Origin: an uncultured Planctomycetia bacterium
GTDB lineage: Bacteria > Omnitrophota > Gorgyraeia > Duberdicusellales > 4484-171
Length of the DNA stretch: 32,000 bases
Reading direction: 5' to 3'
Assembly: GCA_964536865.1 (NCBI GenBank)
Contig: CAZHYN010000001.1
Location: forward strand, 180,001-212,000
In this document: in pieces, positions 7,419-20,890 of the stretch
How the letters are laid out: every line of letters begins with the position of its first letter
How positions within the stretch are numbered: position 1 is the stretch's first letter
Made by a program: the position numbers and the translations under genes
The notes under the pieces: generated by a model
The model's database searches: none
What the model saw: only the letters and a program-made list of their open reading frames with translations
Told to the model about the DNA's origin: nothing

Positions 7419-9416
7419 ATGCTTCAAGGTTTAGAGAAAAAGAAGACTTTTCTTCTCTGTGGTCATGCTCAGACAGGAAAGACCTCTCTAGCTGAGGCGA
7501 TACTTTATCAATGTGGTGTTACTTCCCGCTTAGGAAAGGTAGAGGAGGGTACAACCGTTAGCGATTATGAGGAGGATGAGAAGGAAAGGAAAAGTTCCAT
7601 AAACCTTTCGGTAGTTAATGCTCACTATAAGGATAGCTATCTCCAATTTATAGATACTCCAGGATACCTAGACTTTGTGGGAGAGTTAGTAGCCTCCGCT
7701 CGAGCAGTCAATTTTGCTGTAATTGTAGTGAGTGCATCCTCAGGAGTAGAAGTAGGTACAGAAAAGGCTTGGGAGATTGTAAGAAAGGAAAACTTACCTT
7801 GTTTATTTTTTATTAATCAACTAGATAAAGAAAATGCTGATTACACTAAAGTTGTTGAGCAGATTCAGAAGAATTTAGCTAAAAAAGCTACTTCCTTTGC
7901 TGTTTTTGAAAAAAATACTGTAACTGATGTTTTAAAAAATAAAGACAGAGCGCCTTCTCTCTATAACGAGATTGTTGAGAAGGTAGCAGAAAGTGACGAT
8001 GCCTTATTAGAGAAGTATTTAGATAAAGGAGAGTTGGAAGAGAAGGAATTAATTCTTGCTTTAAAGAGAGCGATTGTAAATTCTCAGATTTTCCCAGTAA
8101 TAGGTGGAATAGCTACTCAGCAGTTAGGAGTAGAGCTACTCTTAGATTTGATTAATGAGATTATGCCTTCCGCAGGGGATTGCTTACCTAAGAAGGCTAA
8201 GGATGCTCAATCCAACCCGTTAGAGATAAATCCTACAGATTCCTTCTTTACTGCTCAGGTTTTTAAAACTGTGGTAGATCCTTACGTAGGCCAGCTTAGT
8301 ATCTTTAGAGTTTTTTCTGGTTCTATTACTTCTAACAGTGAAGTTTATAATGCCACCCGGCGAATCAAGGAGAAGGTTGGCCAACTTTATACTCTTCAAG
8401 GTAAACAGCAGAGTCCTGTGGATAGACTCTCTTCTGGGCAGATCGGTGCAGTAGCAAAGCTAAAAGATACTCATACCCAGGATACGTTGACAGAGGCTTC
8501 CAAGATCTTAGAATTCCCTCCTATTGAATTTCCTTCTCCTGTATACTCAGCTTCAGTAAAGCCTAAGACCCGTCAGGATGAAGAGAAGATCTCTACTGCT
8601 TTAGGCCGCCTTGCTAGTGAGGACCCCACTTTTAAAGTATCTAGAGATGTTCAGACAAAGGAATTAATTATCTCTGGTATGGGAGAGTTACATCTGAATG
8701 TGATTATTGAAAGGATGAGGAGGAAGTATTCTGCTAATGTGGAGTTAGGTACTCCTAAGGTTCCCTATAAGGAAACGGTGACTAAATCTGTGAAAGTTCA
8801 AGGTAAGTATAAAAAACAGACGGGAGGTAGAGGTCAATACGGAGATGTATGGATTGAAGTGGAGCCTCTGGAGAGGGGAAAGGAGTTTGAATTTGTAGAT
8901 AAGATTGTAGGAGGAGCCATTCCTAGAAATTTTATCCCTTCAGTGGAGAAAGGGATAAGAAAGGCTATGGAAGAGGGAATCTTAGCCGGTTATCCAGTAA
9001 CCGACATTAGAGTCACTCTCTACGACGGTTCTTATCATCCTGTAGATTCTTCAGATATCGCTTTCCAAATTGCTGGATCCATGGCTCTTAAACAGGCTTT
9101 AGAACAAGCTAATAGTGTGCTTCTAGAGCCAATTATGAATGTAGAGATAATAGTTCCTGAGGAATTTATGGGACAGATTACAGGAGATATAAATGCTCGT
9201 AGAGGTAGGGTGTTGGGAATGGAGATAAAAGGAAGGAACCAAGTGGTGAGGGCCCAGATTCCCTTAGGAGAAATGTTCAAATATGCCTCAGATCTACGTT
9301 CAGTCACCGGAGGAAGAGGTACCTACTCTATGAGTTTTTCCCACTATGAAATAGTCCCCGCAAGGTTATCTCAGAGCATAATCGAGATGGCTAAAAGAGA
9401 GAAGAAAGAAGGCTAG
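7419..9416 (+). CDS. elongation factor G paralog with divergent G domain (EF-G-like translational GTPase)
   Basis: 665-aa ORF with the five-domain EF-G layout. P-loop GHAQTGKT. G3 reads DTPGY instead of DTPGH. G4 reads NQLD instead of NKxD. The domain IV tip GSYHPVDSSDIAFQIAGS is conserved, as is the domain V/C-terminal PLGEMFKYASDLRSVTGGRGTYSM block. Confidence 0.9.
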   Translation: MLQGLEKKKTFLLCGHAQTGKTSLAEAILYQCGVTSRLGKVEEGTTVSDYEEDEKERKSSINLSVVNAHYKDSYLQFIDTPGYLDFVGELVASARAVNFAVIVVSASSGVEVGTEKAWEIVRKENLPCLFFINQLDKENADYTKVVEQIQKNLAKKATSFAVFEKNTVTDVLKNKDRAPSLYNEIVEKVAESDDALLEKYLDKGELEEKELILALKRAIVNSQIFPVIGGIATQQLGVELLLDLINEIMPSAGDCLPKKAKDAQSNPLEINPTDSFFTAQVFKTVVDPYVGQLSIFRVFSGSITSNSEVYNATRRIKEKVGQLYTLQGKQQSPVDRLSSGQIGAVAKLKDTHTQDTLTEASKILEFPPIEFPSPVYSASVKPKTRQDEEKISTALGRLASEDPTFKVSRDVQTKELIISGMGELHLNVIIERMRRKYSANVELGTPKVPYKETVTKSVKVQGKYKKQTGGRGQYGDVWIEVEPLERGKEFEFVDKIVGGAIPRNFIPSVEKGIRKAMEEGILAGYPVTDIRVTLYDGSYHPVDSSDIAFQIAGSMALKQALEQANSVLLEPIMNVEIIVPEEFMGQITGDINARRGRVLGMEIKGRNQVVRAQIPLGEMFKYASDLRSVTGGRGTYSMSFSHYEIVPARLSQSIIEMAKREKKEG

Positions 9417-10084
9417 TGAAAATTTTTACTCCCCAAGAGCAACTTTTAGGGAAGAAGATTTATCGAGATAAAAGTCTTAAGAAGTTAGAGGAAAAATTTA
9501 AGCCTAAAAAGGTCACTTACTTCAGTGGAGAGTTTATTTCTACTAAAGAAAGCTGTGATGTGATTCTTCTGGATGAGAAAACACTTTTAGATTTTGTTGT
9601 GGAAGATATGGAAAAGTTAGAGGGACTTCTAGGTAAAGAAAAAGAAGAGTTAGTGAAGAAAGCTTTGAGAGTTTTAGATAAGGGTAAACCTTTATTTACA
9701 GAATTAGATGAAAAAGAGAGAGATGAGCTTAAAGATTATAACCTTATCACTTTAAAGCCAGTGGTTTTCCTAGAAGGAGACCAAGATTTAGATACCCTAT
9801 GGGAGAGGATTTTTGAAACAGCAGGAGTTATCTTTTTTTATACTGTCAATAAGAATGAAGCTAGAAGCTACCCTACTAAAGAGGGAACCGACATTGTTTC
9901 TTGCGCAGGAAAAGTCCATAGTGATCTAGCAAGAGGTTTTATAAGAGCAGAGGTTTTCAACATTAAAGATATAGATAGCTTTCATAATTTAGAAGAAGCA
10001 AGGCAGAGAAGGTTCCTGAAGGTAGTGGGTAAAGATTATATCGTAGTTCATGGAGATGTAATTAACATAAAATTTAGCGTTTAG
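9416..10084 (+). CDS. YchF-like protein lacking the P-loop (coiled-coil + TGS/DUF933 C-terminal half only)
   Basis: 222-aa ORF with a GTG start overlapping the EF-G-like TAG stop (TAGTG). The C-terminus HSDLARGFIRAEVFNIKD...VVGKDYIVVHGDVINIKFSV matches the YchF C-terminal domain (HTDFEKGFIRA...GKDYIV.DGDV..F.FNV). LITLKPVVF matches the YchF LTLKP block. No GxxxxGKS or DxxG motif is present. Confidence 0.75.
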   Translation: MKIFTPQEQLLGKKIYRDKSLKKLEEKFKPKKVTYFSGEFISTKESCDVILLDEKTLLDFVVEDMEKLEGLLGKEKEELVKKALRVLDKGKPLFTELDEKERDELKDYNLITLKPVVFLEGDQDLDTLWERIFETAGVIFFYTVNKNEARSYPTKEGTDIVSCAGKVHSDLARGFIRAEVFNIKDIDSFHNLEEARQRRFLKVVGKDYIVVHGDVINIKFSV

Positions 10085-10086
10085 AT

Positions 10087-11601
10087 ATGCTAAAGATACG
10101 TAGAGCCTTAATCAGCGTGTGGGATAAAAGAGGAATAATAGATTTTGCTAAGAAGTTGAAGAGCTTAAATATAGAGATAATCTCTACCGGTAAGACAGCC
10201 TCACTGTTGAGGAGAAGTAAGATAGATGTAAAGACTGTCTATTCTATCACTTCCTTCCCGGAGATTCTTTCTGGGAGAGTGAAGACTCTCCATCCTCGAG
10301 TATTTGGAGCAATTTTAGCTAATAAAAAACACCCTTTACATATGGAAGATTTAAAGAATTTAGGTATAGAACCTATCGATATGGTAGTAGTTAATTTCTA
10401 TCCTTTCCCCAAAATGGTTAAGGAGAAAGTAAGTTTTGACCAGATGTTAGAGTATATTGATATTGGGGGACCAGCGATGCTTAGAGCAGCAGCCAAAAAT
10501 TTTAAAAACGTAGCTTGTGTAAGTTCTCCTCAACAGTATAGGAGGATTATTGAGGAATTAGAGAAGAATAGAGGAATGTTAAAGGAAGAGGCTCTAAGAG
10601 AACTCGCCTGTGAAGTTTTTCGTATTACTAAAGATTACGATACTGCTATCTATGGTTTTTTAAAGAAGAGAGAGGTTTTAGTATGGGATTTAGAGAAGAT
10701 TTCTCATTTACGCTACGGAGAGAATCCCCACCAGAAAGGGGAACTATTCAAACTTTCTACTGAGGAGGGAGTAGGTTTCCGTCAGATTCAAGGAAAACAC
10801 CTTTCTTTTAATAATCTCCTTGACTTAGATACTGCCTTAAGTTTAGTGAAAGATTTTAACGAACCTACAGTTACAATTATAAAGCATGCTTCTCCTTGTG
10901 GAGTAGCTCAGGACAAAAAACTTTTCCGTGCTTTCCTTAAAGCTCATCAGGCTGATCCTGTTTCTAGCTTTGGAGGAATAGTGGGATTAAACAGGAAGGT
11001 TGATGGCAAAACTGCCAAGGAGGTATTGAAAAGTGACTTTAAAGAATGCATAATTGCTCCCAGTTATTCTAAAGAGGCATTGAGACTTTTTTCTTCCAAA
11101 AGAAATCTGCGCATAATAGAAGGGAACTTTGTTAAGTCTACTAAATACAAAGACATAAGAAGGATAGTATTTGGATACCTTCTTCAGGATCCCGATGAAG
11201 TTACTTGTGAAAAGAACCTCCTTAAGGTAGTTACCAAAAAGAAACCTACTGACAAAGAGTGGAAAGATTTACTTTTTGCCTGGAGAGTAGTTAAGTTCGT
11301 AAAATCTAATGCCATTGTAATAGCTAAAAATAGAATTACTCTGGGCATAGGAGGAGGACAGCCTTCTCGAGTGGGAGCAGTGGAGCTTGCTATTAAGAGA
11401 GCTTATAAATCTCCTAAAGGGGCAGTGTTGGCTAGCGATGGCTTCTTTCCTAAAACAGATTCTATAAAATTAATGAAGAAGTATGGTATAAGGTCCATTA
11501 TCCAACCGGGAGGTTCCATTAGGGATAAAGAGATTATAGAAATTTGCAATAAATTAAACATCTCTATGGTTTTCACAGGTATCCGCCACTTCCGCCATTA
11601 A
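10087..11601 (+). CDS. purH: bifunctional AICAR formyltransferase / IMP cyclohydrolase
   Basis: 504-aa ORF. N-terminal RALISVWDKRGIIDFAKKL (MGS-like domain), RVKTLHPRVFGAIL, KHASPCGVA, and the C-terminal IIQPGGSIRD...GIRHFRH are canonical PurH blocks. Confidence 0.95.
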   Translation: MLKIRRALISVWDKRGIIDFAKKLKSLNIEIISTGKTASLLRRSKIDVKTVYSITSFPEILSGRVKTLHPRVFGAILANKKHPLHMEDLKNLGIEPIDMVVVNFYPFPKMVKEKVSFDQMLEYIDIGGPAMLRAAAKNFKNVACVSSPQQYRRIIEELEKNRGMLKEEALRELACEVFRITKDYDTAIYGFLKKREVLVWDLEKISHLRYGENPHQKGELFKLSTEEGVGFRQIQGKHLSFNNLLDLDTALSLVKDFNEPTVTIIKHASPCGVAQDKKLFRAFLKAHQADPVSSFGGIVGLNRKVDGKTAKEVLKSDFKECIIAPSYSKEALRLFSSKRNLRIIEGNFVKSTKYKDIRRIVFGYLLQDPDEVTCEKNLLKVVTKKKPTDKEWKDLLFAWRVVKFVKSNAIVIAKNRITLGIGGGQPSRVGAVELAIKRAYKSPKGAVLASDGFFPKTDSIKLMKKYGIRSIIQPGGSIRDKEIIEICNKLNISMVFTGIRHFRH

Positions 11602-11627
11602 TTAACTCATTTTTAGTTGTTCACTTT

Positions 11628-12953
11628 ATGTCCACCTACAAAGAAATAGAAAGTTATCTCGATACATTTATTAACTATGAGAAGAAGATTTTTTTCTCTT
11701 ATCGAAAGTCTTTAAAACTAGGAAGAGTAAGACACCTTCTCGAGGTCTTAAGAATTCCCTATCAGGAACTAGATGTAATACATATTGCTGGAACTAAAGG
11801 CAAAGGTTCAGTAGCTACTTTTTTAGCTTACCTCTTAGCTTCTTCTCGTTACAAGATAGGACTGTATACTTCTCCCCATTTTTATAATTTTAGAGAGAGA
11901 ATAAAGATAGTAGAAAAGATAAACTCTCAAATTAAGGAAACTCTTATTTCTAAAAGAGGAGTAGTAACTATTGTAGAGAAGTTTAAACCTTATCTAGAAA
12001 TTTTGCGTTATAACCCTCAATGGGGTAAACTTACCTTCTTTGAGGTTTACACTGCTTTAGCTTTCTATTTTTTTTGTCAGCAAAATTTAGATTTCACAAT
12101 TTTAGAAGTAGGATTGGGAGGTAGATTAGATGCTACTAATATAGTAACCCCTTTGGTCTCAGTAATTACTCATATTGGTTATGATCATACGCAAAAGTTA
12201 GGCAAGAGATTAAAAGATATCGCTTACGAGAAAGCAGGAATAATAAAAGAGGGTATACCCGTAGTAAGTTCTTGGCAGCGTCCTACAGTTTTAGAGGTAA
12301 TCAAGAGGAGAGCAAAAACTTTAAATGCCCCTCTTTATATTCTAGGAAAAGATTTTGAGTTTAATAGGGTGAGAGTAAAGTCAAACTATACCCTTTTTGA
12401 TTTTTGGTTTAATAAAACAAAGATTTCTAACCTTAAGATAGCTCTTAAAGGTTTACATCAGGTAGAAAATGCTTCTCTAGCTTTAGCAACACTTTTGCTC
12501 CTCTTGGAGAAAAAAGAAGTAAAATACTTAACAATTAAAGAAGCGTTATCAACTACTTTTCTTGAAGGTAGATTTGAGAGAATAAAAATGCAACCTCTTA
12601 TAATTTTAGATATTGCTCATAATCCTTCCTCTTTTGCTGCCTTGGCTTCCACTCTAGAAAAATATTTTCCCACCAGAGAGATTATTTTAATTTTTGCTGT
12701 CTCTAAAGACAAAGATGTTAAAAATATGCTAAACAAGATAAAGTTCAAAAAGATAATTCTTACTACCTTCTCTAATCCTCGTAGCCTTCATCCTGACAAG
12801 ATCGCAAGATTAGCATGCTTAAAAGAACCTATTTTAACTAGTAAGCCAAGAGAGGCTTTAAAAGTAGCGTTAAGGTTGTACAATAGAGATTCCTTGATTT
12901 TAGTTAGTGGTTCCTTATTTCTAGTAGCGGAGGTAAAAAAGTTGCTATTATGA
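11628..12953 (+). CDS. folC: folylpolyglutamate synthase / dihydrofolate synthase (Mur ligase family)
   Basis: 441-aa ORF. P-loop HIAGTKGKGS, LEVGLGGRLDATN, THIGYDH and ILDIAHNP are FolC/Mur-ligase motifs. Confidence 0.9.
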   Translation: MSTYKEIESYLDTFINYEKKIFFSYRKSLKLGRVRHLLEVLRIPYQELDVIHIAGTKGKGSVATFLAYLLASSRYKIGLYTSPHFYNFRERIKIVEKINSQIKETLISKRGVVTIVEKFKPYLEILRYNPQWGKLTFFEVYTALAFYFFCQQNLDFTILEVGLGGRLDATNIVTPLVSVITHIGYDHTQKLGKRLKDIAYEKAGIIKEGIPVVSSWQRPTVLEVIKRRAKTLNAPLYILGKDFEFNRVRVKSNYTLFDFWFNKTKISNLKIALKGLHQVENASLALATLLLLLEKKEVKYLTIKEALSTTFLEGRFERIKMQPLIILDIAHNPSSFAALASTLEKYFPTREIILIFAVSKDKDVKNMLNKIKFKKIILTTFSNPRSLHPDKIARLACLKEPILTSKPREALKVALRLYNRDSLILVSGSLFLVAEVKKLLL

Positions 12954-14371
12954 GTACCTCTTTTCTTAAAGAATATAGCCTTAACGATACCATCGCTGCT
13001 ATCGCCACCTACCCTGCTAAGAGTGCCTTAGGAGTAATTAAGATATCAGGGAAGAAAGCTTTAGAGATTCTTTCTAAGATATTTATCTCCAAGGGAAGAA
13101 AAGACATAAAGAAGTTACCTACCTATACTCTTCATTACGGATGGGTTATAGAAAAGAAGTCTCACTCAGAGAAGGGTGAAAGGGAAGAAGTTTTAGATGA
13201 GGTACTAGTAAGTGTAATGAGAGCTCCTTGCTCCTATACTAGAGAAGATGTGGTGGAAATTTCCTCTCATGGAGGGATCCTTGTTTTGAATAGAATCTTA
13301 GAGTTAGTGTTGAAGAAGGGAGCAAGGCTAGCTAACCCTGGAGAGTTTAGTTATCGGGCATTTATAAATGGGAGGATAGACTTAGTTCAGGCTCAAAGTA
13401 TTTTAGATATTGTAGAAGCAAAAACAGAGCAGGGGCTTTTAGCTGCTACCACTCATTTGAAAGGGAAAATTTCTAAGAAGATAGAAGAAATTGAGGAGAA
13501 GTTAAGAAATATCTTTTCCCAGATAGAAGCTTCTATTCAATTTCCTGAAGAAGAAGTAAATATCTCTTTTGAGGAGATAAAAAGAGATGTTAGAAGGTTG
13601 AAAAAAGAGTTAGAAGAGCTAGTTAAAGCTTCCCGAGAAGGCCAGCTCATAAAAGAGGGGGTAAAGTGTGTAATATGTGGGAGAGCAAACGTAGGTAAGT
13701 CTACTCTTTTTAATCGTCTTCTTCAAGAAGAAAGGGTTATCGTAACTGAAGTTCCTGGGACTACTAGAGACGTAATTGAGGAGAATATAAACATAAAAGG
13801 TATTCCTTTAAGAATAGCTGATACTGCAGGAATACTGGAACCTAAGGACTTGATAGATAAAGTAGCGTTAGAGAAGAGTTTGAAAAAGATTGCAGAAGCA
13901 GATTTAGTTTTATTTCTCTTAGATTACTCTCAACCCTTAAGTAGAGAAGACTATCTCCTCTTAGATAAAATAAAAGATAAAAACGTTATTCTTGTAATCA
14001 ATAAGATAGATTTAAAAAAAGGTTTAGATTTAAATGAGGTTAGAAAGTTTAACAAACCTAGGGTTAAATTGAGTGCTTTGAGAGGAGAGGGATTTTCTAA
14101 TTTAGAGAAGGTAATCTTTAAGAACCTACTGGGGAGGACAACTTTAAGGGGTTATGATTTAGTATTCTTAGCTCATAGACAGAAGGAGTTGCTTTCTCAG
14201 GCTTTTTCTAGCTTATCTCAAGGTATAGAGTATTGTGAGCAAGGTTACTCTCTAGATATTATAGGGCTTCTGTTAAAAGAAGCTTTAGATAGTCTTGCTA
14301 AACTTACTGGTAAGGTGGTAGAGGAAGAGGTTTTAAAGGAGATATTTTCTCGTTTCTGTATTGGTAAGTAA
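12950..14371 (+). CDS. mnmE: tRNA modification GTPase MnmE (TrmE)
   Basis: 473-aa ORF. Its start overlaps the folC stop (ATGA). N-terminal TIAAIATYPAKSALGVIKISG, G domain GRANVGKSTLFN / DTAG / NKID, and the canonical C-terminal FCIGK motif. Confidence 0.95.
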   Translation: MSTSFLKEYSLNDTIAAIATYPAKSALGVIKISGKKALEILSKIFISKGRKDIKKLPTYTLHYGWVIEKKSHSEKGEREEVLDEVLVSVMRAPCSYTREDVVEISSHGGILVLNRILELVLKKGARLANPGEFSYRAFINGRIDLVQAQSILDIVEAKTEQGLLAATTHLKGKISKKIEEIEEKLRNIFSQIEASIQFPEEEVNISFEEIKRDVRRLKKELEELVKASREGQLIKEGVKCVICGRANVGKSTLFNRLLQEERVIVTEVPGTTRDVIEENINIKGIPLRIADTAGILEPKDLIDKVALEKSLKKIAEADLVLFLLDYSQPLSREDYLLLDKIKDKNVILVINKIDLKKGLDLNEVRKFNKPRVKLSALRGEGFSNLEKVIFKNLLGRTTLRGYDLVFLAHRQKELLSQAFSSLSQGIEYCEQGYSLDIIGLLLKEALDSLAKLTGKVVEEEVLKEIFSRFCIGK

Positions 14372-14388
14372 CCAGGAAAGGAGTGGAG

Positions 14389-14946
14389 ATGGATAGAAAA
14401 AAGATTGAGAAGGCAGTTAAGATGATTATAGAGGCAGTAGGAGCTAACCTCAATAAGAAGGACTTGCTTGCTACTCCCCGTAGAGTAGCTCAGATGTATG
14501 AGGAGATACTAAAGGGAGAAAAGAGATCGCCCGAGAAAGAGCTGGATGTAATTTTAGAGCAGAAACACGATGAGATAATTCTTCTAAAAGACATACCTTT
14601 ATATTCTCTCTGTGAGCATCATCTCCTTCCCTTTGCAGGAAAGGTTCATATTGCTTATATTCCCGACAAGCGGATTACAGGGCTAAGTAAAATAGTTAGA
14701 GTAGTGGAGATCTTATCCTCTAGACTTCAAGTTCAAGAGAGGTTAACTACCCAGATTGCTGATGTGATTATGAAGAAATTGAAACCAAAGGGAGTAATGG
14801 TGGTAATTGAGGCAGAACATCTATGTATGTCTATGCGGGGAGTTAAAAAACCTGGTGTTAAAGCGGTAACTAGTGTAGTAAGAGGAATTTTTCGTAAAAA
14901 TCAGAAAACCCGTCAGGAAGGTTTAAGTCTAATATTTTCTAAGTAA
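14389..14946 (+). CDS. folE: GTP cyclohydrolase I (FolE type 1)
   Basis: LATPRRVAQMY, CEHHLLPF and HLCMSMRGV are canonical FolE motifs. I prefer the ATG at 14389 because AAGGAG at 14377-14382 lies 6 nt upstream. The ORF track's in-frame GTG at 14383 is the alternative start. Confidence 0.93.
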   Translation: MDRKKIEKAVKMIIEAVGANLNKKDLLATPRRVAQMYEEILKGEKRSPEKELDVILEQKHDEIILLKDIPLYSLCEHHLLPFAGKVHIAYIPDKRITGLSKIVRVVEILSSRLQVQERLTTQIADVIMKKLKPKGVMVVIEAEHLCMSMRGVKKPGVKAVTSVVRGIFRKNQKTRQEGLSLIFSK

Positions 14947-20500: not shown

Positions 20501-20890
20501 TTAAGTGTCAATACACTTAATGAGAGATTGTATAGCTTTTTTATCTTCCTTCTTTATTTGCCAAAATTTTATACCTACTTCAAATAAAGAATTATTTTTA
20601 TAAAGTAGTTCTTTTTGTTCTACCCATACCACTTTACCCTTACAAATGATGGGATGATTTTTTACTGCATAAATCTCTAGGTTCACAAGAGAATGGTTTG
20701 TTAGTTTCTTATGAATGACTACTCTCACTCCTCCCGCACCAATATCTTCAGTATACCCATAGATTAGTGTTTTAGAAGCAGTTATAGTAATTTGACAGGG
20801 AAGTTTTATCCTTGCGAATTGTCTTTTTTCTCCTTTTAGAGTGTTCATATACTCATTTAAAATATAACATATAAACCGTTCTGTTTTCAA
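20501..20890 (-). CDS. single-domain PilZ protein (c-di-GMP receptor candidate)
   Basis: RxxxR (RQFAR) followed by D-x-(S/G)-x-x-G (DIGAGG), then the beta-barrel-like remainder. The TTG start at 20890 is preceded by GGGGTGA. The in-frame ATG at 20848 is the alternative. Confidence 0.75.
   Translation of the reverse strand: MKTERFICYILNEYMNTLKGEKRQFARIKLPCQITITASKTLIYGYTEDIGAGGVRVVIHKKLTNHSLVNLEIYAVKNHPIICKGKVVWVEQKELLYKNNSLFEVGIKFWQIKKEDKKAIQSLIKCIDT

What the first reader, a model, noticed from the sequence alone, without database searches (positions are those of the whole stretch)
7419..9416. EF-G paralog lacking the catalytic histidine and the NKxD lysine
The domain organisation and the domain IV tip (YHPVDSS) are EF-G-like, but the G domain is altered at key positions. 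G3 is DTPGY (Tyr83, nt 7665-7667) instead of DTPGH. That His is the universally conserved catalytic residue of translational GTPases. G4 is NQLD (nt 7815-7826) instead of NKxD. Switch I reads ERKSSI instead of ERGITI. The P-loop GHAQTGKT is intact. This suggests a ribosome-binding factor that binds nucleotide but hydrolyses GTP poorly or by a different mechanism. It has its own near-consensus promoter and heads a long operon.
Basis: partly seen in the sequence, partly recalled or inferred. Interest (0 to 1): 0.65.

Follow-up and report, generated by a model that had tools for sequence, protein, structure and literature searches.

The report
EF-G2-type paralog lacking catalytic histidine
This gene encodes a second, EF-G2-type copy of the ribosome's translocation factor in an uncultured Omnitrophota bacterium; its missing catalytic histidine is real but is the normal, already published hallmark of that family, so the finding is correct and fairly ordinary.

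Summary
These are GHAQTGKT, ERKSSI, DTPGY (Tyr83), NQLD and YHPVDSS.

The protein belongs to the known EFG II / EF-G2 subfamily. It carries all 13 published EFG II signature residues. In a neighbour-joining (NJ) tree it separates from canonical EF-G with 100% bootstrap support.

Tyr or Phe in place of the catalytic His is the rule in this family:
- 119 of 120 Omnitrophota orthologs have Tyr.
- All 80 species genomes checked have Tyr or Phe.
- 100 of the 150 nearest cluster representatives have Tyr or Phe, and only 3 have His.
- The solved T. thermophilus EF-G-2 and M. smegmatis EF-G2 both have Tyr.

The K-to-Q change in G4 occurs only in the window's close relatives. It has a precedent in Bacteroides EF-G2.

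Related Omnitrophota genomes also carry canonical EF-G with AHIDAGKTT, RGITI and DTPGH, so this gene is a true paralog.

The gene heads a cluster conserved across the phylum: EFG II, a P-loop-less YchF-like protein, purH, folC, mnmE and folE.

The most likely role is an accessory ribosome-binding translocase with weak or altered GTPase activity. This rests on analogy and was not tested.

Verdict: a new member of a known kind, of low to moderate interest.

The parts
6278..7318 (+). queA (tRNA preQ1(34) S-adenosylmethionine ribosyltransferase-isomerase), the conserved upstream neighbour in the closer relatives
   Evidence: NCBIfam NF001140 scores 418 bits against a cutoff of 324. queA lies directly upstream of the ortholog in L001, L002, L012-L015, L018, L023, L026, L028, L032, L033, L038 and L043.
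7366..7394 (+). sigma-70-like promoter match: TTGACG, 17 nt, TATAAT (11 of 12)
   Evidence: Consensus scan and the sequence itself. This is a consensus match only. The number of such matches in the region is not above the shuffled expectation.
7407..7412 (+). Shine-Dalgarno-like AAGGAG, 6 nt before the ATG
   Evidence: Read directly from the sequence.
7419..9416 (+). EFG II / EF-G2-type elongation factor G paralog, 665 aa
   Evidence: The AlphaFold model (pLDDT 80) matches EF-G structures over their full length, with Foldseek E-values from 1e-80 to 1e-64. The matches include 1WDT and 8DMF.
7461..7484 (+). G1 / P-loop GHAQTGKT. Gly15 and Gln18 replace the Ala and Asp of canonical AHIDAGKT.
   Evidence: Among the aligned orthologs Gly15 is present in 119 of 119 rows and Gln18 in 116 of 119.
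7584..7601 (+). Switch I / G2 ERKSSI, where canonical EF-G has ERGITI. Ser60 replaces the Mg-coordinating Thr.
   Evidence: The EFG II consensus for G2 is xxxSx. R57 and S60 are invariant in 47 aligned orthologs.
7653..7667 (+). G3 / switch II DTPGY. Tyr83 replaces the catalytic His.
   Evidence: The position is Tyr in 119 of 120 orthologs and Tyr or Phe in 80 of 80 species genomes. 1WDT has DAPGY, and Msm EF-G2 has Y98.
7815..7826 (+). G4 NQLD. Gln134 replaces the NKxD lysine.
   Evidence: Lys is present in 114 of 119 aligned rows. Gln occurs only in the window, P0001 and P0002 and in the species genome L003. Bacteroides EF-G2 (7UVP) also has NQLD.
8811..8843 (+). Domain IV loop I, KKQTGGRGQYG. 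The Lys-Lys pair is typical of EFG II. The GGRGQYG stretch is identical to canonical EF-G.
9033..9053 (+). Domain IV tip loop II, YHPVDSS
   Evidence: Y539, H540, V542, D543, S544 and S545 are invariant in orthologs.
9416..10084 (+). YchF-derived protein of 222 aa that lacks the P-loop half. It is the conserved downstream partner.
   Evidence: Pfam YchF-GTPase_C matches residues 139-220. Residues 127-221 align to YchF 2DBY residues 273-367. No Walker A motif is present. The gene is adjacent to the ortholog in about 60 of 80 genomes.
10087..11601 (+). purH
   Evidence: NCBIfam NF002049, 656 bits. Position conserved.
11628..12953 (+). folC
   Evidence: NCBIfam TIGR01499, 363 bits. Position conserved.
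12950..14371 (+). mnmE (tRNA-modification GTPase)
   Evidence: NCBIfam TIGR00450, 388 bits. Position conserved.
14383..14946 (+). folE (GTP cyclohydrolase I), last gene of the conserved cluster
   Evidence: NCBIfam NF006826, 265 bits. Position conserved.

Best explanation
The gene encodes the Omnitrophota ortholog of the EFG II (EF-G2) subfamily. This is an ancient paralog of elongation factor G that co-exists with canonical EF-G.

It keeps the five-domain EF-G body and a canonical-looking domain IV tip, so it should bind the ribosomal factor site and reach the decoding centre. Its G domain is the EFG II type:
- a Gly-type P-loop without the monovalent-cation Asp;
- Ser instead of Thr in switch I;
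- Tyr instead of the catalytic His.

The nucleotide-binding motifs are under strong purifying selection, so it most likely still binds guanine nucleotide.

Inferred mechanism: it acts as an accessory translocase or ribosome-binding factor whose ribosome-stimulated GTP hydrolysis is slow, absent or chemically different. It would be used alongside the canonical EF-G. The extra K134Q change in this lineage probably weakens nucleotide affinity further.

The gene is transcribed as the first gene of a phylum-wide conserved cluster, together with a P-loop-less YchF-like protein, purH, folC, mnmE and folE.

Shown here: family membership, conservation of the substitutions, paralogy in related genomes, and synteny. 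Inferred by analogy: ribosome binding, nucleotide binding and the weak GTPase.
For: Family membership:
- The best NCBIfam match is NF009381, at 878 bits against a cutoff of 583.
- All 6 'type I' and all 7 'type II' EFG II signature positions of Margus et al. 2011 are met.
- The G domain's best PDB match is T. thermophilus EF-G-2 (1WDT), which has the same DxPGYxDFVGE motif.
- In an NJ tree of 105 sequences, canonical EF-G forms a clade with 100% bootstrap support (200 replicates). This clade holds T. thermophilus, E. coli, Dictyoglomus and 9 Omnitrophota canonical-type proteins. The window protein lies on the other side with 1WDT and the His-less representatives.

The trait is the family norm:
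- Among the 150 nearest 50%-identity cluster representatives, the residue after DxPG is Y in 71, F in 29 and H in 3.
- 119 of 120 orthologs have Tyr.
- 77 of 80 species genomes have Tyr and the other 3 have Phe.

The G domain is constrained rather than decaying:
- Mean column conservation is 0.79, and 39 of 160 columns are invariant.
- The P-loop, DxPGYxDF and NxxD motifs are nearly invariant.

Paralogy:
- Contig L005 carries a 72%-identical ortholog next to a canonical-type EF-G with AHIDAGKTT, ERGITI, DTPGH and NKMD.
- The complete chromosome CP070797.1 has the ortholog (L043) plus two canonical-type EF-Gs (L083).
- Contig lengths 277460, 502554 and 140856 recur in both hit lists.
- Omnitrophota chromosomes with the gene order S12-S7-EF-G-EF-Tu have been reported.

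Function by analogy:
- EF-G-2 lacks the active-site His and the cation-site Asp and Gly, yet it makes poly(Phe) and hydrolyses GTP.
- Msm EF-G2 (Y98) lacks ribosome-dependent GTPase and traps post-translocation ribosomes. The H88Y mutation nearly abolishes GTPase in EF-G1.
- Bacteroides EF-G2 translocates without GTP hydrolysis and has NQLD.

Domain identities to T. thermophilus EF-G are 63% for domain IV and 57% for domain V, against 33% for the G domain.

Operon.
Against: - No activity was measured.
- Over its whole length the protein scores higher against canonical T. thermophilus EF-G (about 600 bits) than against EF-G-2 (453 bits). It just passes the canonical EF-G equivalog TIGR00484, at 665.9 against 659.4. 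It is therefore an unusually slowly evolving, EF-G-like member of EFG II.
- It fails the narrower EF-G2 equivalogs: NF009377 at 598 against 890, and NF058620 at 567 against 1000.
- The window's own genome could not be searched for a canonical fusA.
- T. thermophilus EF-G-2 shows that Tyr at this position does not by itself predict loss of GTPase.
Confidence: 0.75

Rival explanations
1. It is a ribosome-trapping or translation-slowing factor rather than a translocase, as proposed for M. smegmatis EF-G2. In this reading it binds post-translocation ribosomes without turning over and throttles protein synthesis under stress or energy limitation.
For: It has the same His-to-Tyr change as Msm EF-G2, which lacks ribosome-dependent GTPase and traps post-translocated ribosomes. 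The additional K134Q change in this lineage should weaken nucleotide handling. The hosts are Omnitrophota, which are mostly ultra-small cells.
Against: - Unlike Msm EF-G2, this protein keeps the P-loop His (GHAQTGKT) and the switch I Arg57, as the catalytically active T. thermophilus EF-G-2 does.
- Its domain IV loops are nearly identical to those of canonical EF-G. In Msm EF-G2 those loops are displaced.
Confidence: 0.2
2. It is the main or only translocase of this organism and works as a normal GTP-dependent EF-G despite the Tyr.
For: - It passes the TIGR00484 EF-G cutoff marginally, and public sources name it 'elongation factor G'.
- Orthologs are highly conserved, at 65-83% identity.
- T. 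thermophilus EF-G-2 with the same Tyr is GTPase- and translocation-active in vitro.
Against: - Related genomes carry one or two canonical-type EF-Gs as well.
- The gene is not in an S12-S7-EF-G-EF-Tu context, which does exist in Omnitrophota.
- In the genomes surveyed by Margus et al., a single EF-G gene was always EFG I.
Confidence: 0.05
3. It is a ribosomal protection protein (Tet(M)/Tet(O)-like), or another translational GTPase such as BipA, LepA or RF3.
For: The domain architecture is shared, and there are weak HMM matches.
Against: The scores are far below the cutoffs:
- tet_protect, 346 against 775;
- TypA, 150 against 757;
- LepA, 138 against 534;
- RF3, 152 against 473.

The protein also has an EF-G-type domain IV tip.
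Confidence: 0.01
4. It is a decaying pseudo-GTPase that no longer binds nucleotide, or the altered motifs are assembly errors.
For: Three or four catalytic or nucleotide-contact residues are changed at once.
Against: - The same residues recur in independent assemblies (window, P0001, P0002, L003, L085, L086).
- The G-domain motifs are nearly invariant across 119 orthologs.
- The ORF is intact and conserved across the phylum.
Confidence: 0.02

Closest known systems
Thermus thermophilus EF-G-2 (PDB 1WDT/2DY1), the EFG II subfamily of Margus et al. 2011
   Same: - Both are 665 aa.
- Both have a Gly-type P-loop that keeps the His (GHAxxGKT) and a switch II motif DxPGYxDFVGE with Tyr in place of the catalytic His.
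- Both have lost the monovalent-cation Asp and Gly.
- Both have the KKQTGG motif in domain IV.
- 1WDT is the best PDB match for the G domain.
   Different: - Overall identity is only 40%.
- 1WDT has Thr at position 61 and Val at 291, where the window protein has the EFG II consensus residues Ser and Thr.
- The window protein's domains III-V are closer to canonical EF-G (49-63% identity) than to EF-G-2 (38-53%).
- The window protein has NQLD, and 1WDT has TKLD.
Mycobacterium smegmatis EF-G2 (PDB 9K0Z/9K10)
   Same: Both have His replaced by Tyr (Y98). Both are accessory paralogs that sit beside a canonical EF-G1.
   Different: - Msm EF-G2 has also lost the P-loop His-Ile-Asp stretch, the switch I Arg and the G5 motif, and its domain IV loops are displaced.
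- The window protein keeps His16, Arg57 and canonical-looking domain IV loops.
- Sequence similarity is lower: 438 bits against 600 for canonical EF-G.
Bacteroides thetaiotaomicron EF-G2 (PDB 7UVP/8DMF)
   Same: Both lack the catalytic His. Both have an identical G4 motif, NQLD. Both are accessory EF-G paralogs. EF-G2 is reported to translocate without GTP hydrolysis.
   Different: - Bacteroides EF-G2 has Ser, not Tyr (DCPGS), and a switch I of YGYSV type.
- It is 718 aa long.
- The window protein fails the NF058620 cutoff, at 567 against 1000.
Canonical EF-G (EFG I, fusA)
   Same: Both have the five-domain fold. Domain IV loops GGRGQYG and SYHxVDSS are shared. Identity to T. thermophilus EF-G is 45% overall, and the window protein marginally passes TIGR00484.
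   Different: - The window protein lacks AHIDAGKT, RGITI and DTPGH.
- Its G' subdomain is about 29 aa shorter.
- It is not in the str operon.
- It is separated from the EFG I clade with 100% NJ bootstrap support.

Membership tests
EFG II subfamily (Margus, Remm & Tenson 2011) | Six type I positions that are conserved differently from EFG I: G16, L25, S61, T291, G333 and K/R352 in 1WDT numbering | tested here: met
   The window protein has G15, L24, S60, T284, G328 and K347 at the aligned columns. T. thermophilus EF-G has A, T, T, I, A and G there.
EFG II subfamily (Margus, Remm & Tenson 2011) | Seven type II positions: D216, V250, L264, K471, K472, E513 and G603 | tested here: met
   All seven residues are identical in the window protein.
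EFG II subfamily (Margus, Remm & Tenson 2011) | The translational-GTPase G2 consensus RGITI is relaxed to xxxSx, while G1, G3 (DxPG) and G4 are kept | tested here: met
   G2 is RKSSI. GxxxxGKT and DTPG are present. G4 is NKxD in 114 of 119 aligned rows, and NQLD in the window lineage.
EFG II subfamily (Margus, Remm & Tenson 2011) | Groups phylogenetically apart from EFG I | tested here: met
   The EFG I clade is recovered in 200 of 200 NJ bootstrap replicates, with the window protein outside it. The nearest 30 cluster representatives are all non-canonical, and the best canonical one ranks 31st. This is NJ only; no maximum-likelihood tree was built.
EFG II subfamily (Margus, Remm & Tenson 2011) | Occurs in addition to a canonical EF-G in the same genome | tested here: inconclusive
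   Met for relatives: L005 on a single contig, and the CP070797.1 chromosome. The window's own genome is not available beyond these 32 kb, and they contain no second EF-G.
NCBIfam NF009381 (PRK12740.1-5, EF-G subfamily) | HMM score above the curated cutoff of 583 bits | tested here: met
   878.3 bits over the full length.
NCBIfam NF009377 'EF-G-like protein EF-G2' and NF058620 'EFG2_Bacteroid' | HMM score above the curated cutoffs of 890 and 1000 bits | tested here: not met
   598 and 567 bits. The protein is not a member of these narrower equivalog groups.
Canonical EF-G (EFG I / fusA) | AHIDAGKT P-loop, RGITI switch I and DTPGH catalytic His | tested here: not met
   The window protein has GHAQTGKT, RKSSI and DTPGY. 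The Omnitrophota canonical-type EF-Gs have all three motifs in 120 of 120 hits.
Canonical EF-G (EFG I / fusA) | TIGR00484 equivalog score above the cutoff of 659.4 | tested here: met
   665.9 bits, split into two stretches, so only marginally above the cutoff. This explains why public annotations call it plain 'elongation factor G'.
Canonical EF-G (EFG I / fusA) | str-operon context (rpsL-rpsG-fusA-tuf) | tested here: not met
   The gene is flanked by queA and by ychF-like-purH-folC-mnmE-folE, both in the window and in 80 related loci. No S12, S7 or EF-Tu hits were found in those loci.
Tetracycline ribosomal protection proteins | NF012153 score above 775 | tested here: not met
   346 bits.
GTPase-deficient EF-G2 (functional class) | Lack or strong reduction of ribosome-stimulated GTP hydrolysis | not testable with these tools
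   This needs biochemistry. Characterised members differ: T. thermophilus EF-G-2 is active, while the Msm and Bacteroides EF-G2 proteins are inactive.

The most novel reading that the evidence does not exclude
In Omnitrophota the His-less EF-G and the P-loop-less YchF-like protein encoded right after it form a dedicated two-protein ribosome module. It would be co-transcribed with GTP-, folate- and tRNA-modification genes (purH, folC, mnmE, folE). The module would let these ultra-small, energy-limited cells run or throttle translocation with little or no GTP hydrolysis, as a routine mode of translation rather than a stress backup. In the window's lineage, the K134Q change would push it further towards nucleotide-independent action.
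Probability: 0.1. Interest if true: 0.6.

Novelty: new member of a known kind. Interest (0 to 1): 0.25.

Why it matters
- **Annotation.** Public records call this protein plain 'elongation factor G' because it just clears the canonical EF-G model threshold. It is in fact an EF-G2-type paralog and should not be used as the fusA marker of these genomes.
- **Biology.** EF-G2 proteins are the natural experiments for a debated question: whether GTP hydrolysis drives translocation. This Omnitrophota clade is a slowly evolving member of that family. It keeps a canonical-looking domain IV and a T. thermophilus-like G domain. It also has a natural Lys/Gln polymorphism in G4 and one natural Tyr-to-His revertant (P0084). 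These make convenient comparison material.
- **Context.** The phylum-wide linkage to a truncated YchF and to purH, folC, mnmE and folE gives a testable regulatory setting.

None of this changes what is known about the family.

Tried and rejected
- **Han et al. 2023 (Bacteroides EF-G2).** I tried to read it by DOI and by PMC id. It is not held. What I say about it comes from papers that cite it and from the 7UVP alignment.
- **EF-G copy number in Omnitrophota.** The supplement of Seymour et al. 2023 lists K02355 only as present or absent, so it was uninformative.
- **Finding a canonical Omnitrophota EF-G through the 50%-identity representative search.** The best canonical representative turned out to be Dictyoglomus, which did not help.
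- **What worked instead.** The problem was solved by chance, from locus L005 in the genome scan, and then by a targeted protein search.
- **Two clade tests in the NJ analysis.** The tests for 'Omnitrophota EFG II only' were mis-specified, because unnamed representatives such as P0121 and P0122 belong to the same clade. Those zero values mean nothing. Only the split between EFG I and the rest is used.
- **Alternative identities considered and rejected.** Tet(M)-like protection protein, BipA, LepA or RF3; pseudogene or assembly error.
- **Promoter.** The scan gives a good hexamer match but no enrichment over shuffled sequence, so it is not used as evidence of function.
- **Third protein search.** I ran no further search on the YchF-like neighbour.
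Full report
**1. Observation**

The window has one long ORF at 7419-9416 on the + strand, encoding 665 aa.
- GHAQTGKT, residues 15-22;
- ERKSSI, residues 56-61;
- DTPGY, with Tyr83 at nt 7665-7667;
- NQLD at nt 7815-7826;
- YHPVDSS, residues 539-545.

Pfam finds the complete EF-G architecture. In a phmmer alignment to T. thermophilus EF-G, Tyr83 sits under the catalytic His of DTPGH, RKSSI sits under RGITI, and NQLD sits under NKMD. An AlphaFold2 model (mean pLDDT 80) matches solved EF-G structures over their full length, with Foldseek E-values from 1e-80 to 1e-64. The matches include 1WDT and 8DMF.

One correction is needed. The P-loop is intact only as a Walker A motif. The translational-GTPase form AHIDAGKT has become GHAQTGKT, so the Asp that helps bind the monovalent cation is Gln18.

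**2. Organism and orthologs**

The closest proteins are annotated as Candidatus Omnitrophota / Omnitrophica. 120 clusters at 65-99% identity were listed. A near-identical strain is GCA_021162445.1, which has the same gene order.

| Position | Result |
|---|---|
| After DxPG, 120 orthologs | Tyr in 119, His in one (P0084) |
| After DxPG, 80 species genomes at 47-83% identity | Tyr in 77, Phe in 3, never His |
| G4 lysine | Lys in 114 of 119 aligned rows |
| G4 Gln | Only the window, P0001 and P0002, plus L003 among the species genomes |

The Tyr is therefore a clade trait. The K-to-Q change is a recent, lineage-specific addition.

The G domain is not decaying. Its mean column conservation among orthologs is 0.79, and 39 of 160 columns are invariant. 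The nucleotide-binding motifs are almost invariant.

**3. Family**

The best NCBIfam model is NF009381, an 'EF-G' subfamily of the PRK12740 group, at 878 bits against a cutoff of 583. The canonical equivalog TIGR00484 is passed only marginally, at 665.9 against 659.4. The two narrower EF-G2 equivalogs are not reached.

Margus, Remm and Tenson (PMC3150367) defined the EFG II subfamily by three features:
- relaxation of RGITI to xxxSx;
- six residues conserved differently from EFG I;
- seven residues conserved only in EFG II.

In an alignment with 1WDT, T. thermophilus EF-G and Dictyoglomus EF-G, the window protein has the EFG II residue at all 13 positions.

With the G domain alone as query, the best solved structure is T. 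thermophilus EF-G-2 (1WDT). It reads DAPGYGDFVGE, against DTPGYLDFVGE here. The second best is Bacteroides thetaiotaomicron EF-G2 (7UVP), which reads DCPGS and has the same G4 motif, NQLD.

An exhaustive HMMER search of 1.84 billion cluster representatives returned 150 nearest relatives. The residue after DxPG is Y in 71, F in 29 and H in only 3. The first canonical EF-G, from Dictyoglomus, ranks 31st.

An NJ tree of 105 sequences recovers the canonical clade in 200 of 200 bootstrap replicates. That clade holds T. thermophilus, E. coli, Dictyoglomus and nine Omnitrophota canonical-type EF-Gs. The window protein lies on the other side, with 1WDT and the His-less representatives.

**4. Is the missing His known?**

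Yes.
- A 2026 preprint on mycobacterial EF-Gs states that in M. smegmatis EF-G2 'the catalytic H88 is replaced by Y98'. [quoted passage not shown]
- T. thermophilus EF-G-2 nevertheless has intrinsic and ribosome-dependent GTPase activity.
- Bacteroides EF-G2 is cited as translocating without GTP hydrolysis.

**5. Is it a paralog?**

The window itself holds no other EF-G, and its genome is not available to me. In relatives the answer is yes.
- **Contig L005** (JAMWDA010000053.1) carries a 72%-identical ortholog. Divergently next to it lies a canonical-type EF-G with AHIDAGKTT, ERGITI, DTPGH and NKMD. That protein is 57-60% identical to T. thermophilus and Dictyoglomus EF-G.
- **A search with that protein** returned 120 relatives, many named Omnitrophota. 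All carry AHIDAGKTT, RGITI and DTPGH.
- **The complete chromosome CP070797.1** has the EFG II ortholog (L043, 71% identity) plus two canonical-type EF-Gs of 698 and 797 aa, 2.4 kb apart.
- **Contig lengths** 277460, 502554 and 140856 appear in both hit lists.
- **A 2026 preprint** reports the gene order S12-S7-EF-G-EF-Tu on several Omnitrophota chromosomes.

**6. Context**

A TTGACG-17-TATAAT match (11 of 12) and an AAGGAG box precede the ATG. Such matches are no more frequent than in shuffled sequence, so this is suggestive only.

Five same-strand genes follow, with gaps between -4 and +26 nt: a 222-aa YchF-derived protein, purH, folC, mnmE and folE.

The order EFG II, YchF-like, purH, folC, mnmE, folE is kept in about 60 of the 80 species genomes. 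It holds down to 51% identity and includes Velamenicoccus archaeovorus. queA is the upstream neighbour in the closer relatives. The 'long operon' claim is therefore supported by conserved synteny, although co-transcription has not been shown.

**7. Mechanism**

Shown:
- EFG II membership;
- a constrained G domain with an intact Walker A, DxPG and NxxD Asp;
- a canonical-looking domain IV (63% identity to T. thermophilus EF-G, with GGRGQYG and SYHxVDSS conserved);
- co-existence with canonical EF-G in relatives.

Inferred: the protein binds guanine nucleotide and the ribosomal factor site, and promotes or gates translocation with slow, absent or mechanistically different GTP hydrolysis.

It keeps the P-loop His16 and the switch I Arg57, as the active T. 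thermophilus EF-G-2 does. The inactive mycobacterial EF-G2 has lost both. I therefore favour an accessory slow translocase (about 0.55) over a pure ribosome-trapping factor (about 0.2). It being the sole, normal translocase is unlikely (about 0.05).

The K134Q change removes a contact with the guanine nucleotide (established G-protein knowledge). It probably lowers affinity. The same motif occurs in Bacteroides EF-G2.

**8. Verdict**

The features are the published hallmarks of a large known family.

What is new:
- the Omnitrophota membership;
- the unusually EF-G-like C-terminal half;
- the lineage-specific NQLD motif;
- the conserved cluster with a P-loop-less YchF.

Novelty: a new member of a known kind. 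Interest: about 0.25.

Noticed in passing
L005 1435-4533 (-); also proteins P0280-P0392 (outside the window): About 44% (53 of 120) of the canonical-type EF-G relatives found with the L005 protein carry an N-terminal extension of roughly 100-490 aa (about 300-400 aa in most). All 120 carry AHIDAGKTT, RGITI and DTPGH. Many named hits are Omnitrophota, and a few are named Spirochaetes or Aureabacteria. In most of the 53, the extension starts with a hydrophobic, TM-like helix at residues about 1-22. A K/E/Q/L-rich stretch that looks like coiled coil follows. The total length is about 1000-1170 aa. The extension in L005 is 340 stop-free codons, which has a chance probability of about 6e-12. A literature search found no description of a membrane-tethered EF-G. 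This may be more novel than the finding I was given.
   Followed up: partly
window 9416-10084 (+): The gene immediately after the EFG II gene encodes a 222-aa protein derived from YchF. It keeps the C-terminal TGS-like domain and part of the coiled-coil insert, but it has no P-loop half. It is the conserved downstream partner of EFG II in about 60 of 80 Omnitrophota species genomes.
   Followed up: partly
window 7419-14946 (+); L004-L080: The gene order EFG II, YchF-like, purH, folC, mnmE, folE is conserved across the phylum. It links the paralog to genes that use GTP, folate and tRNA modification. A subgroup at about 52% identity (proteins of about 682 aa with FHEVDSS) lacks this cluster and has queA about 4 kb downstream instead.
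   Followed up: partly
L083 6001-8097 and 10454-12847 (CP070797.1): One complete 1.5-Mb Omnitrophota chromosome has two canonical-type EF-G genes, of 698 and 797 aa, 2.4 kb apart. Neither is next to S7 or EF-Tu. With the EFG II copy elsewhere on the chromosome, that makes at least three EF-G family genes in a small genome.
   Followed up: partly
P0084 (ortholog, 69% identity): This is the only one of 120 orthologs with DTPGH instead of DxPGY. It appears to be a natural Tyr-to-His revertant within the clade.
   Followed up: no
L020 (JAIWAR010000030.1); also L004, L006 and others: A contig with the typical Omnitrophota queA-EFG II-ychF-like-purH cluster is deposited as a 'Methanosarcinales archaeon' MAG. 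This is either mis-binning or a reflection of Omnitrophota cells attached to methanogens, as reported for V. archaeovorus. Many other loci are labelled 'uncultured Planctomycetia'.
   Followed up: no
window 8487-8514 (+): A second 11-of-12 sigma-70-like match (TTGACA, 16 nt, TAGAAT) lies inside the EFG II coding region.
   Followed up: no
window 20501-20890 (-), 27229-28554 (+), 28551-30693 (+): The far end of the window holds several c-di-GMP-related genes: a PilZ-domain protein, a GGDEF protein, a small MshEN-type c-di-GMP-binding ORF, and an overlapping PilB/GspE-type ATPase that carries the same N-terminal domain.
   Followed up: no
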